From the human T2T-CHM13v2.0 reference genome, Homo sapiens: a DNA stretch of 64,000 bases. The number at the start of each line of letters is the position of its first letter. Position 1 is the first letter of the stretch. The stretch is from NCBI RefSeq assembly GCF_009914755.1, contig NC_060931.1, one strand, 5' to 3'. The position numbers were made by a program, and so were the translations under genes. Under the pieces are notes generated by a model. The model was given only the letters and a program-made list of their open reading frames with translations, did no database searches and had not been told where the DNA came from. Shown one piece after another: positions 31,678 through 37,919 of this stretch.

Positions 31678-34600
31678 TCTTTTTTATTATACTTTAAGTT
31701 TAGGGTGCATGTGCACAAGGTGCAGGTTTCTTACATATATATACATGTGCCATGTTGCTGTGCTGCACCCATTAACTCATCATTTAACATTAGGTATATC
31801 TCCAAATGCTATCCCTCCCCCCTCCCCCCACCCCACAACAGTCCCTGGTGTGTGATGTTCCCCTTCCTGTGTCCATGTGTTCTCATTGTTCAATTCCCAT
31901 CTATGAGTGAGAACATGTGGTGTTTGGTTTTTTGTCCTTGCGATAGTTGGCTGAGAATGATGGTTTCCAGCTTCATCCATGTCCCTACAAAGGACATGAA
32001 CTCATCCTTTTTTATGGCTGCACAGTATTCCATGGTGTATATGTGCCACATTTTCTTAATCCAGTCTATCGTTGTTGGACATTTGAGTTGGTTCCAAGTC
32101 TTTGCTATTGTGAATAGTGCCGCAATAAACATACGTGTGCATGTGTCTTTCTAGCAGCATGATTTATAATCCTTTGGGTATATACCCAGTAATGGGATGG
32201 CTGGGTCAAATGGTATTTCTAGTTCTAGATCCCTGAGGAATTGCCACACTGACTTCCACAATGGTTGAACTAGTTTACAGTCCCACCAACAGTGTAAAAG
32301 TGTTCCTATTTCTCCACATCCTCTCCAGCTCCTGTTGTTTCCTGCCTTTTTAATGATCACCATTCTACTGGTGTGAGATGGTATCTCATTGTGGTTTTGA
32401 TTTGCATTTTTCTGATGGCCAGTGATGATGATCATTTTTTCATGTGCCTTTTGGCTGCATAAATGTCTTCTTTTGAGAAGTGTCTGTTCATATCCTTCGC
32501 CCACTTTTTGATAGGGTTGTTTGTTTTTTTCTTGTAAATTTGTTTGAGTTCATTGTAGATTCTGGATATTACCCTTTGTAAGATGAGTAGATTGCAAAAA
32601 TTTTCTCCCATTCTGTAGATTGCCTGTTCACTCTGATGGTAGTTTCTTTTGCTGTGCAGAAGCTCTTTAGTTTAATTAGATCCCAATTGTCAATTTTGGC
32701 TTTTGTTGCCATTGCTTTTGGTGTTTTAGACATGAAGTCCTTGCCCATGCCTATGTCTTGAATGGTATTGCCTAGGTTTTCTTCTAGGGTTTTTATGGTT
32801 TTAGGTGTAACATTTAAGTCTTTAATCCATCTTGAATTAATTTTTGTATAAGGTGTAAGGAAGGGATCCAGTTTCAGCTTTCTACATATGGCTAGCCAGT
32901 TTTCCCAGCACCATTTATTAAATAGGGAATCCTTTCCACATTGCTTGTTTTTCTCAGGTTTGTCAAAGATCAGATAGTTGTAGATATGTGGTATTATTTC
33001 TGAGGGCTCTGTTCTGTTCCATTGATCTATATCTCTGTTTTGGTACCAGTACCATGCTGTTTTGCTTACTGTACCCTTGTAGTATAGTTTGAAGTCAGGT
33101 AGCGTGATGCCTCCAGCTTTGTTCTTTTGGCTTAGGATTGACTTGGTGATGCGGGCTCTTTTCTGGATCCATATGAAGTTTAAAGTAGTTTTTTCGAATT
33201 CTGTGAAGAAAGTCATTGGTAGCCTGATGGGGATGGCATTGAATCTATAAATTACCTTGGGCAGTATGGCCATTTTCACGATATTGATTCTTCCTACCCA
33301 TGAGCATGGAATGTTCTTCCATTTGTTTGTGTCCACTTTTATTTCATTGAGCAGTGGTTTGTAGTTCTCCTTGAAGAGGTCCTTCACACCCCTTGTAAGT
33401 TGGATTCGTAGGTATTTTATTTGCTTTGAAGCAATTGTGAATGGGAGTTCACTCATGATTTGGCTCTCTGTTTGTCTGTTATTGGTGTATAAGAATGCTT
33501 GTGAGTTTTGCACATTGATTTTGTATCCTGAGACTTTGCTGAAGTTGCCTATCAGCTTGAGGAGATTTTGGGCTGAGACGATGGGGTTTTCTAGGTATAC
33601 AATCATGTCATCTGCACACAGGGACAATTTGACTTCCTCTTTTCCTAATTGAATACCCTTATTTCCTTCTCCTGCCTGATTGCCCTGGCCAGAACTTCTA
33701 ACACTATGTTGAATAGCAGTGGTGAGAGAGGGCATCCCTGTCTTGTGCCAGTTTTCAAAGGCAATGCTTCCAGTTTTTGCCCATTCAGTATGATATTGGC
33801 TGTGGGTTTGTTATAAATAGCTCTTATTATGTTGAGATACGTCCCATCAATACCTAATTTATTGAGAGTTTTTAGCATGAACTGTTGTTGAATTTTGTTG
33901 AAGGCCTTTTCTTTATCTATTGAGATAATCATGTGGTTTTTGTCGTTGGTTCTGTTTATATGCTGGATTACATTTATTGATTTCTATATGTTCAGCCAGG
34001 CTTGCATCCCAGGGATGAAGCCCACTTGATCATGGTGGATAAGCTTTTTGATGTGTTGCTGGTTTCGGTTTGCCGGTATTTTATTGAGGATCTTTGCGTC
34101 AATGTTCATCAGAGATATTTTTCTAGAATTCTCTTTTTTTGTTGTGTCTCTGCCAGGCTTTGGTATCAGGATGATGCTGGCCTCACAAAATGAGTGAGGG
34201 AGGATTCCCTCTTTTTCTATTGATTGGAATAGTTTCAGAAGGAATGGTACCAGCTCCTCCTTGTACCTCTGGTAGAATTCGGCCGTGAATCCATCTGGTC
34301 CTGGACTTTTTTTGGTTGGTAAGCTATTGATTATTGCCACAATTTCAGAGCGTGTTATTGGTCTATTCAGAGATTCAACTTCTTCCTAGTTTAGTCTTGG
34401 GAGGGTGTATGTGTCGAGGAATTTATCCATTTCTTCTAGATTTTCTAGTTTATTTGCGTAGAGGTGTTTGTAGTATTCTCTGATGGTATTTTGTATTTCT
34501 GTGGGATCGGTGGTGATATCCCTTTTATCATTTTTTATTGTATCTATTTCATTCTTCTCTCATTTCTTCTTTATTAGTCTTGCTAGCAGTCTATCAATTT

Positions 34601-35558
34601 TGTTGATCTTTTCAAAAAACCAGCTCCTGGATTCATTAATTTTTTGAAGGGTTTTTTTGTGTCTCTATTTCCTTCAGTTCTGCTCTGATTTTAGTTATTT
34701 CTTGCCTTCTGCTAGCTTTTGAATGTGTTTCCTCTTGCTTTTCTAGTTCTTTTAATTGTGATTTTAGGGTGTCAATTTTGGATCTTTCCTGCTTTCTCTT
34801 GTGGGCATTTAGTGCTATAAATTTCCCTCTACACACTGCTTTGAATGTGTCCCAGAGATTCTGGTATGTTGTGTCTTTGTTCTCGTTGGTTTCAAAGAAC
34901 ATCTTTATTTCTGCCTTCATTTCGTTATGTACCCAGTAGTCATTCAGGAGCAGGTTGTTCAGTTTCCATGTAGTTGAGTGGTCTTGAGTGAATTTCTTAA
35001 TCCTGAGTTCTAGTTTGATTGCACTGTGGTCTGAGAGACAGTTTGTTATAATTTCTGTTCTTTTCCATTTGCTGAGGAGTGCTTTATTTCCAACTATGTG
35101 GTCAATTTTGGAATAGGTGTGGTGTGGTGCTGAAAAGAATGTATATTCTGTTGATTTGGGGTGGAGAGTTCTGTAGATGTCTATTAGGTCCGCTTGGTGC
35201 AGAGCTGAGTTCAGTTCCTGGGTATCCTTGTTAACTTTCTGTCTCGTTGATCTGACTAATGTTGACAGTGGTGTGTTAAAGTCTCCCATTATTATTGTGT
35301 GGGAGTCTAAGTCTCTTAGTAGGTCTCTGAGGACTTGCTCTATGAATCTGGGTGCTCCTGTATTGGGTGCATATATACTTAGGATAGTTAGCTCTTCTTG
35401 TTGAATTGATCCCTTTACCATTATGTAATGGCCTTCTTTGTCTCCTTTGATCTTTGTTGGTTTAAAGTCTGTTTTATTAGAGACTAGGATTGCAAGCCCT
35501 ACCTTTTTTTGTTTTCCATTTGCTTGGTAGATCTTCCTCCATCCCTTTATTTTGAGCC
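31678..35558 (-). mobile_element. L1PA copy B: 3' ~3.9 kb, ending early in the ORF2 endonuclease domain
   Basis: ORF2 remnants 34636-35421 (EN: NIYAP-like, SDH), 33984-34340 and 32569-33735; short A-tail at 31678-31685. Confidence 0.95.
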
Positions 35559-37919
35559 ATGATCAAGTGGGCTTCATCCCTGGGATGCAAGGCTGGTTCA
35601 ACATACACAAATCAATAAATGTAATCCAGCATATAAACAGAACCAAAGACAAAAACCACATGATTATCTCAACAGATGCAGAAAAGGCCTTTGATTAAAT
35701 TCAACAATCCTTCATGCTAAAAACTCTCAATAAATTAGGTATTGATGACAAGTATCTCAAAATAATAAGAGCTATCTATGACAAACCCACAGCCAATATC
35801 ACACTGAATGGGCAAAAACTGGAAGCATTCCCTTTGAAAACTGGCACAAGACAGGGATGCCCTCTCTCACCACTCCTATTCAACATAGTGTTTGAAGTTC
35901 TGGCCAGGGCAATTAGGCAGGAGAAGGAAATAAAGGGTATTCAATTAGGAAAAGAGGAAGTCAAATTGTCCCTGTTTGCAGATGATATGATTGTATATCT
36001 AGAAAACCCCATTGTCTCAGCCCAAAATCTCCTTAAGCTGATAAGCAACTTCAGCAAAGTCTCAGGATACAAAATCAATGTACAAAAATCACAAGCATTC
36101 TTATACACCAATAACAGACAAACAGAGAGCCAAATCATGAGTGAACTCTCATTCACAATTGCTTCAAAGAGAATAAAATACCTAGGAATCCAGCTTACAA
36201 GGGATGTGAAGGACCTCTTCAAGGAGAACTACAAACCACTGCTCAATGAAATAAAAGAGGATAAAAACAAATGGAAGAACATTCCATGCTCATGGGTAGG
36301 AAGAATCAATATTGTGAAAATGGCCATACTGCCCAAGGTAATTTATAGATTCAATGCCATCCCCATCAAGCTACCAATGACTTTCTTCACAGAATTGGAA
36401 AAAACTACTTTAAAGTTCATATGGAACCAAAAAAGAGCCCGCATCACCAAGTCAATCTTAAGCCAAAAGAACAAAGCTGGAGGCATCATGCTACCTGACT
36501 TCAAACTATACTACAAGGCTACAGTAACCAAAGCAGCATGGTACTGGTACCAAAACAGAGATATAGATCAATGGAACAGAACAGAGCTCTCAGAAATAAT
36601 GCCGCATATCTAGAACCATATGATCTTTGACAAACCTGAGAAAAACAAGCAATGGGGAAAGGATTCCCTATTTAATAAATGGTGCTGGGAAAACTGGCTA
36701 GCCATATGTAGAAAGCTGAAACTGGATCCCTTCCTTACACCTTATACAAAAATTAATTCAAGATGGATTAAAGACTTAAATGTTACACCTAAAACCATAA
36801 AAACCCTAGAAGAAAACCTAGGCAATACCATTCCGGTCATAGGCATGGCAAGGACTTCATGTCTGAAACACCAAAAGCAATGGCAACAAAAGCCAAAATT
36901 GACAAATGGGATCTGATTAAACTCAAGAGTTTCTGCACAGCAAAAGAAATTACCATCAGAGTGAACAGGCAACATATAGAATGGGAGAAAATTTTTGCAA
37001 TCTACTCATCTGACAAAGGGCTAATATCCAGAATCTACAATGAACTCAAACAAATTTACAAGAAAAAAAAAAAAACAACCCCATCAAAAAGTGGGTGAAA
37101 GATATGAACAGATACTTCTCAAAAGAAGACATTTATGCAGCCAAAAGACACATGAAAAAATGCTCATCATCACTGGCCATCAGAAAAATGCAAATCAAAA
37201 CCACAATGAGATACCATCTCACACCAGTTAGAATGGCAATCATTAAAAAGGCAGGAAACAACAGGTGCTGGAGAGGATGTGGAGAAATAGGAACACTTTT
37301 ACACTGTTGGTGGGACTGTAAACTAGTTCAACCATTGTGGAAGTCAGTGTGGCAATTCCTCAGGGATCTAGAACTAGAAATACCATTTGACCCAGCCATC
37401 CCATTACTGGGTATATCCCCAAAGGGTTATAAATCATGCTGGTATAAAGACATATGCACACGTATGTTTATTGCAGCAGTATTCACAATAGCAAAGACTT
37501 GGAACCTACCCAAATGTCCAACAATGATAGACTGGATCAAGAAAATGTGACACATATACACCATGGAATACTATGCAGCCATAAAAAATGATGAGTTCAT
37601 GTCCTTTGTAGGGAGATGGATGAAACTGGAAACCATCATTCTCAGCAAACTATTGCAAGGCCAAAAAACCAAACCCCGCATGTTCTCAATCATAGGTGGG
37701 AATTGAACAATGAGAACACATGGACACAGGAAGGGGAACATCACACACCAGGGACTGTTGTGGAGTTGGGGGAGGAGGGAGGGATAGCATTAGGAGATAT
37801 ACCTAATGCTAAATGACGAGTTAATGGGTGCAGCACACCAACATGGCACATGTATACATATGTAACAAACCTGCACATTGTGCACATGTACCCTAAAACT
37901 TAAAGTATAATAAAAAAAA
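35557..37919 (+). mobile_element. L1PA copy C: 5'-truncated, fused head-to-head to B
   Basis: ORF2 remnants 35714-36613 (LFADDMIVY) and 37095-37550; 3'UTR and short A-tail. Confidence 0.95.

What the first reader, a model, noticed from the sequence alone, without database searches (positions are those of the whole stretch)
31681..37919. Head-to-head L1 fusion forms a 6.2-kb palindrome that is not ordinary twin priming
Seen: at 35557-35558 the minus-strand B (...TTTTGAGCC) joins the plus-strand C (CCATGATCAAG...) through a 2-bp CC microhomology, with no TSD or filler. Arms 31681-34035 and 35557-37919 (~2.35 kb) are inverted homologues around a 1.5-kb spacer, and both end in an A-tail. Established: twin-primed L1s have one tail and essentially non-overlapping inverted parts, and closely spaced inverted repeats are unstable and depleted. 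Inference: this is a fold-back/template-switch junction, or a twin-primed element whose inverted part later recombined with another L1. It is a likely hairpin, dsRNA or inversion substrate.
Basis: partly seen in the sequence, partly recalled or inferred. Interest (0 to 1): 0.7.

Follow-up and report, generated by a model that had tools for sequence, protein, structure and literature searches.

The report
L1 palindrome at a duplication's edge
The 6-kb mirror-image L1 is the inner edge of a 16-kb duplicated block: an ordinary twin-primed L1 and its neighbours sit copied inside a full-length L1, likely by a DNA repair error, and the two copies of the block are the repeats of the known common human inversion HsInv0286.

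Summary
In detail: arms of about 2.36 kb, 94.7% identical, 1,521-bp spacer, CC microhomology. The junction itself is ordinary twin priming. Window 34038-49915 has an inverted copy 74 kb upstream (chr7:54,379,781-54,395,663). There the spacer begins directly after a target-site duplication inside an old host L1, and it ends 2 nt from where C starts on the L1 map. In the window, B's tail and the L1 5' end at 49918 share an 11-bp target-site duplication, and the span minus the 12,117-bp insert is 6,124 bp. So B is the 3' part of one full-length L1 that was split by about 12.8 kb of copied DNA, with both switch points inside L1 homology (34197-34283 and 47012-47120). Repeat sizes and four SwaI sites match the published inversion HsInv0286 (47% in CEU); CHM13 has the standard orientation. 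The arms show no gene conversion, so nothing supports an unstable hairpin. The locus and mechanism class are known; I did not find this base-level origin in my searches.

The parts
31667..31677 (.). Target-site duplication of the resident full-length L1, tail-side copy
   Evidence: GGAGAAATCTT occurs only here and at 49919-49929 in the window
31678..34196 (-). Arm B: 3' part of the resident full-length L1, not duplicated
   Evidence: No near-identical counterpart upstream before 34038; 34038-34208 has 11 private derived alleles and 0 shared with the donor's inverted piece
34197..34283 (-). Entry switch point: resident L1 changes to the donor's inverted L1 piece
   Evidence: Last window-private allele 34196, first derived allele shared with the donor 34284; 10 shared derived sites in 34209-34730
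34284..35558 (-). Spacer: copy of the inverted 5' segment of a twin-primed L1 (full segment in the donor corresponds to 34038-35558)
   Evidence: Segment maps to positions 2247-3764 of L1 D, C starts at 3767; donor copy starts right after host L1 plus TSD
35557..35558 (.). Twin-priming inversion junction, 2-bp CC microhomology
   Evidence: Identical in both copies of the duplication; only two full-length matches among 40 scored of 3,639 candidates
35557..37919 (+). Arm C: non-inverted 3' segment and A-tail of the twin-primed L1
   Evidence: One difference from the donor copy in 2,363 bp, at 36930, not a B allele
37916..37950 (+). Damaged 3' TSD copy of the twin-primed L1
   Evidence: AAAATTTCATCTT (37916-37928) matches 12 of the first 13 nt of the donor's 5' copy AAAATTTCCTCTTAGCA; a short local duplication follows
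37951..42400 (-). Old host L1 into which the twin-primed L1 inserted (end approximate)
   Evidence: Continues the donor's left flank in independent copies
42725..47012 (-). Copy of the 3' part of donor L1 D', with its tail-side TSD (42725-42739) and a solo LTR (44209-45259)
   Evidence: TSD partner exists only in the donor, at 54,379,758; near-identical to donor
47012..47120 (-). Exit switch point: donor L1 D' changes back to the resident L1
   Evidence: Last shared derived allele maps to 47012, first donor-private allele to 47120
47120..49918 (-). 5' part of the resident full-length L1
   Evidence: 8.4% different from the donor's D' over 46901-49915; ends at the TSD
49919..49929 (.). Target-site duplication of the resident L1, 5'-side copy
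34038..49915 (.). Distal inverted repeat (IR2) of inversion HsInv0286
   Evidence: 15,878 bp here and in Table S1 of PMC3961182; four SwaI sites and fragment sizes match

Best explanation
The palindrome is the inner edge of an inverted 16-kb duplicated block in which a twin-primed L1 and its neighbours lie copied inside a full-length L1, likely by one homology-directed gap-repair event. Step 1 (shown): a 5'-inverted L1 sits in an old host L1 at chr7:54.392-54.396 Mb, with a TSD, a CC inversion junction and 2 nt lost at the inversion point. Step 2 (shown): 74 kb away a full-length L1 of about 6.1 kb with its own TSD is interrupted by about 12.8 kb of that donor locus, and both joins lie in L1-L1 homology. 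Step 3 (inferred): a break in the resident L1 was repaired from the donor, which offers two same-direction L1 stretches 12.1 kb apart; one broken end used the inverted piece, the other used L1 D', so the DNA between them was copied in. Step 4 (shown by match to print): the two copies are the inverted repeats of HsInv0286. The B/C palindrome is a by-product with no sign of recombination between its arms.
For: Inverted paralog of 34038-49915, 98.15% overall, 3 differences in 11,343 bp of core. Its edge coincides with the inner end of arm B. Donor: left flank and the flank after C's tail both match 4 of 6 independent host copies and abut within 2 nt in 3 of them. Inverted piece ends at L1 position 3764, C starts at 3767. 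Window: TSD shared by B's tail and the 5' end at 49918; an 11-mer match occurred in 0.06% of 200,000 random 25-nt stretches; both flanks match in order in 6 of 9 independent host copies, with a TSD-sized overlap in L023. 18,241 - 12,117 = 6,124 bp. Donor D' has its own TSD, 14 of 15 nt. Alleles polarised with 12 independent L1s switch at both ends. The TSDs make the standard orientation the pre-duplication one; four chimpanzees and two gorillas are std/std.
Against: The 3' TSD copy of the twin-primed L1 is damaged (12 of 13 nt, then a rearrangement). There is no microhomology at its outer 5' junction, whereas only 28 of 605 5'-inverted L1s lacked one in PMC2912911. The inverted piece (1.5 kb, breakpoint near 3.7 kb) is on the long and 5' side of the usual range. 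Later gene conversion has blurred the edges, so the switch points may have moved. One genome only: no ape or macaque sequence showing the unsplit resident L1. The sequence cannot separate one repair event from several rearrangements with the same end product.
Confidence: 0.85

Rival explanations
1. Same parts, different route: a replication fork switched twice at L1 homology (or two separate L1-L1 inversions recombined), giving duplication plus inversion of the 74-kb interval, and a later re-inversion restored the standard order.
For: Gives the same two chimeric joins. The repeats are known to invert the interval, and one passage suggests recurrence at HsInv0286.
Against: Needs at least one more event. 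The standard orientation is the TSD-consistent one, apes are std/std, and the 2014 haplotype network gave Inv a unique origin with Std ancestral.
Confidence: 0.1
2. The 35557 junction is a fold-back or template-switch junction that fused two L1s B and C head to head in place.
For: Microhomology junction, two tails and overlapping arms when the window is read alone.
Against: The identical junction lies in the donor without any B arm, within TSD and host continuity. A fold-back would make near-identical arms; these are at background 95%. The 2-nt fit of the two pieces on the L1 map is the twin-priming signature.
Confidence: 0.02
3. The structure is an assembly artefact of CHM13 (a collapsed or mis-joined repeat).
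For: The core of the two copies is 99.97% identical over 11 kb.
Against: The older hg18 assembly has the same repeat size (15,878 bp) and spacing (74,380 vs 74,375 bp), and iPCR validated both breakpoints in 9 of 9 people.
Confidence: 0.01
4. C is a simple nested insertion that deleted its target, next to a 5'-truncated B.
For: Head-to-head L1 pairs can arise by chance in L1-rich DNA; several inverted pairs lie in this region.
Against: C's host DNA and TSD are found at the donor locus beyond the inverted piece, and B's 5' end is found at 49918.
Confidence: 0.02

Closest known systems
HsInv0286 polymorphic inversion, chr7 (Aguado et al. 2014, PMC3961182)
   Same: It is this locus: repeats 15,883 and 15,878 bp (paper 15,887 and 15,878); SwaI fragments 41.5, 23.3, 31.4 and 33.4 kb reproduced.
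   Different: In the parts I read, the paper describes the repeats only as made of partial transposon copies and does not say how they arose.
Twin-primed (5'-inverted) L1 insertions
   Same: Inverted 5' piece, non-inverted 3' piece, one tail, TSD, junction microhomology, near-adjacent L1 positions (descriptions).
   Different: In the window copy the 5' TSD and outer 0.16-0.25 kb were replaced by a second L1, which creates the second tail. No microhomology at the outer junction.
Duplication-dependent strand annealing (DDSA; Fiston-Lavier 2007, as described in PMC3276153)
   Same: A break in a repeat is repaired from an ectopic site holding the same repeat, and the ectopic DNA is copied into the break.
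   Different: Described there for Drosophila. Here both ends are anchored in two different L1 copies, with intact TSDs marking donor and recipient. I did not look for DDSA re-invasion traces.
Transposable element-mediated rearrangements, L1-L1 (PMC9675761, PMC2603318)
   Same: Chimeric L1 joins at about 94% identity (median 93.5% for homology-driven L1 events); TSD mismatch tells ancestral from derived.
   Different: The passages read cover deletions, duplications between same-direction repeats and inversions; this is an interspersed inverted duplication with two chimeric joins.

Membership tests
Twin-primed L1 | 5' piece inverted, its outer end adjacent on the L1 map to the start of the 3' piece | tested here: met
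   3764 versus 3767 on L1 D
Twin-primed L1 | Whole element flanked by a TSD in continuous host DNA, at an endonuclease-type site | tested here: met
   In the donor: host continuity in 4 of 6 independent copies, TSD of 17 nt on the 5' side, partial (12 of 13) on the 3' side, site reads TTTT/AT on the cut strand. The window copy has lost the 5' side.
Twin-primed L1 | Microhomology at the inversion junction | tested here: met
   CC, 11 of 12 independent copies
Twin-primed L1 | Microhomology between target 3' end and L1 at the outer junction (usual, not obligatory) | tested here: not met
   TTAGCA/GATAAG versus L1 TGGTG/GATAAG; absent in 4.6% of cases in PMC2912911
HsInv0286 inverted repeat | Repeat size, spacing and flanking SwaI sites | tested here: met
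Homology-directed L1-L1 duplication (DDSA-like) | Both ends of the copied block lie in homologous repeats, giving chimeric elements | tested here: met
   Allele switches at 34197-34283 and 47012-47120
Homology-directed L1-L1 duplication (DDSA-like) | Recipient is a single pre-existing repeat and the donor stays intact | tested here: met
   TSD pairs at both loci, 6,124-bp residual length
Homology-directed L1-L1 duplication (DDSA-like) | Single repair event, with the pre-duplication state seen in an outgroup | not testable with these tools
   No relatives are held for this genome
Unstable DNA palindrome / fold-back | Near-identical arms or traces of exchange between arms | tested here: not met
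   118 differences in 2,343 columns; C+B shared pattern 6 sites versus 20 and 13 for the other pairings; C differs from the donor copy at one non-B site
dsRNA / A-to-I editing substrate | A transcript covering both arms | not testable with these tools
   No expression data; the supplied gene table lists no gene over 31681-37919

The most novel reading that the evidence does not exclude
Out-of-register repair of a broken full-length L1 from a nearby L1 pair is a general, undescribed route by which primate genomes create the inverted repeats of common inversions. HsInv0286 is a fully TSD-resolved example, and other 'transposon-only' segmental duplications would show a split L1 whose TSD halves enclose the copied block.
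Probability: 0.25. Interest if true: 0.65.

Novelty: new member of a known kind. Interest (0 to 1): 0.4.

Why it matters
It gives a base-level birth history for the repeats behind an inversion carried by about half of CEU chromosomes: L1 insertion, L1-L1 repair duplication, homogenisation of the copies, inversion. It corrects the repeat's size (about 12.8 kb truly duplicated, the rest of the 15.9 kb is ordinary L1 homology). It predicts that the B/C palindrome sits at the distal breakpoint on standard chromosomes and at the proximal one on inverted chromosomes. It also suggests a simple genome-wide screen: L1 halves with matching TSDs separated by duplicated DNA. The palindrome itself has no evidence of function or instability.

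Tried and rejected
TSD flanking C alone or B alone near 35557: none among 14-mers with up to 1 mismatch; that search missed B's true partner at 49919 because the 14-mers spanned an indel, and it was found by direct reading. Gene conversion between arms B and C: none. A third copy of the junction: none among 40 scored of 3,639 candidates, a lower bound. The window as donor: rejected, since the twin-primed element's host and 5' TSD and D's 5' TSD exist only upstream. Dating from the core (0.03%): rejected, because the copied edge has about 7 events in 997 bp against 3 in 11,343 bp (Fisher p 2e-6; segments chosen after seeing the data, a conversion tract left out). Ape iPCR cannot tell whether apes carry the duplication, since the pre-duplication state would also score standard. 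L1 subfamily was not assigned: no repeat library is on hand. Literature searches for the origin of these repeats found nothing.
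Full report
Observation. Self-BLAST of the window confirms an inverted match between 31680-34035 and 35557-37917 (2,362 bp, 94.7%), with 1,521 bp between the arms. Both arms end in short A-tails. The junction reads TTTTGAGCC/ATGATC; 11 of 12 independent L1 copies read GAGCC then T there, and contiguous L1 reads CACC before ATGATC, so CC is a 2-bp microhomology without filler. The arm identity is background for these L1s: over 2,343 ungapped columns C-B is 94.96%, C-A 95.31%, B-A 95.22%, C-D 94.84%.

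The block is duplicated. A search of the genome with the DNA right of C (37900-42700) gave a 100% identical inverted copy at chr7:54,387,006-54,391,806. The full match runs from window 34038 to 49915 against 54,395,663-54,379,781 (98.15%). Its left edge is the inner end of arm B. The core, 35558-46900, has 3 differences in 11,343 bp; the edges have 9.9% (34038-34208) and 8.4% (46901-49915). The 35557 junction is identical in both copies, and only these two full-length matches appeared among 40 scored of 3,639 candidates.

The upstream copy holds an ordinary twin-primed L1. There the spacer starts directly after old-L1 DNA ending AAAATTTCCTCTTAGCA. That flank and the DNA after C's tail both match 4 of 6 independent host copies and abut within 2 nt in L003, L004 and L006; L005 and L007 matched the right flank only. 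After C's tail the TSD is partly kept (AAAATTTCATCTT, 12 of 13) and then scrambled by a short local duplication. On the L1 map the inverted piece covers 2247-3764 and C starts at 3767. This is the geometry described for twin priming (passages of PMC2912911, and of bioRxiv 10.1101/2021.12.20.472354). Against a perfect fit: no microhomology at the outer junction (absent in 28 of 605 cases), and the inversion is longer than 88% of polymorphic cases.

Arm B is half of a split full-length L1. I predicted that B's tail would share a TSD with the L1 5' end at the far edge of the block. It does: GGAGAAATCTT at 31667-31677 and 49919-49929, its only two occurrences in the window; 0.06% of 200,000 random 25-nt stretches share an 11-mer with B's tail flank. 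The outer flanks match in order in 6 of 9 independent copies of their host repeat, with a TSD-sized overlap in L023; the other 3 matched the right flank only. The span between the TSDs, 18,241 bp, minus the 12,117-bp offset between the two donor L1 stretches is 6,124 bp, a full-length L1. In the upstream copy, L1 D' has its own TSD (14 of 15 nt; 54,379,758 and 54,386,967), of which the window has only the tail-side copy. So upstream is the donor and the window is the recipient.

Switch points. Variable sites among the four homologous stretches were polarised with 12 of 12 fetched independent L1s. In 34038-34208 the window has 11 private alleles and shares none with the donor's inverted piece; in 34209-34730 it shares 10 derived alleles and has none of its own. 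The entry lies between 34197 and 34283. In D the window shares derived alleles with D' up to a site mapping to 47012, and lacks 15 D'-private alleles from 47120 on. About 12.8 kb was truly copied, and 0.6-0.8 kb of the resident L1 between the two switch positions was replaced. A later conversion tract put D alleles into the donor's inverted piece (9 sites, equivalent to 34756-34896), so the edges have been edited since.

Mechanism (inferred). The donor offers two same-direction L1 stretches 12.1 kb apart. A break in the resident L1, with one end priming on the inverted piece and the other annealing at D', copies everything between them. This matches duplication-dependent strand annealing as described in passages of PMC3276153 (I did not read the original 2007 paper) and the similarity range of homology-driven L1 rearrangements (median 93.5%, passages of PMC9675761). 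A route through inversion and re-inversion gives the same product but needs more steps.

The locus is known. I recalled the name HsInv0286 and then tested it. Table S1 of PMC3961182 gives repeats of 15,887 and 15,878 bp and SwaI fragments of 41.5, 23.3, 31.4 and 33.4 kb. CHM13 gives 15,883 and 15,878 bp and 41,499, 23,305, 31,387 and 33,417 bp, with all four published site sequences in the standard order. [quoted passage not shown] I read passages, sections 6 and 12, the Table S1 row and part 2 of Table S3. One passage of bioRxiv 10.64898/2026.01.23.701363 suggests recurrent events at this inversion, while the 2014 paper inferred a unique origin.

Is the palindrome active? Nothing here says so. 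B and C share no excess of alleles (6 sites against 20 and 13 for the other pairings) and no unusually long identical run (171 bp; other pairs 134-176). C differs from its donor copy at one site, which is not a B allele. By established knowledge a 1.5-kb spacer rules out cruciform extrusion; a single-strand hairpin or dsRNA remains possible but untested. It is the most closely spaced of 11 inverted matches of 1 kb or more in the 190 kb examined.

Age. The copied edge shows about 7 events in 997 bp against 3 in 11,343 bp of core (post hoc), so the core has likely been homogenised and the duplication is likely some millions of years old. This is a rough inference; no primate genome could be searched.

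Novelty. The junction is ordinary, the locus is a published inversion and the mechanism class is known. Six searches found no account of how these repeats arose; passages of PMC2603318 had no chr7 mention. The library lacks most subscription papers, and I could not see inversion databases or the supplements of the two preprints, which may describe it. Verdict: real, explained, a clean new example of L1-mediated duplication that seeded a common inversion. Interest 0.4.

Noticed in passing
L012 (chr7:54,394,807-54,394,945), equivalent to window 34756-34896: Gene-conversion tract: the donor's inverted L1 piece carries 9 derived alleles of L1 D over about 140 bp.
   Followed up: partly
window 37906-37952: The tail and 3' TSD of C are followed by a short quasi-palindromic duplication (TATAATAAAAAAAATTTC twice), present in both copies of the block, so it predates the duplication or was homogenised.
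   Followed up: partly
window 44209-45259: Solo LTR of 1,051 bp with a 6-bp TSD (CTTGGC) inside L1 D, identical in both copies; resembles MER11 from recall, not tested.
   Followed up: no
window 18922-21504: A further 5'-truncated young L1 (A, plus strand), tail-to-tail with B at 10 kb, 94.6% identical.
   Followed up: partly
L040:86-3960 (chr5:88.789-88.793 Mb): This fetched locus matches the 1.5-kb L1 query twice, once in each orientation (94.6% and 90.1%), so it holds another closely spaced inverted L1 pair.
   Followed up: no
window 35261-35557 and donor D' at chr7:54,382,038-54,382,296: D' has almost no private alleles here and is 98% identical to the inverted piece, above the 96-97% of the best unrelated copies; possibly a second conversion tract.
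   Followed up: no
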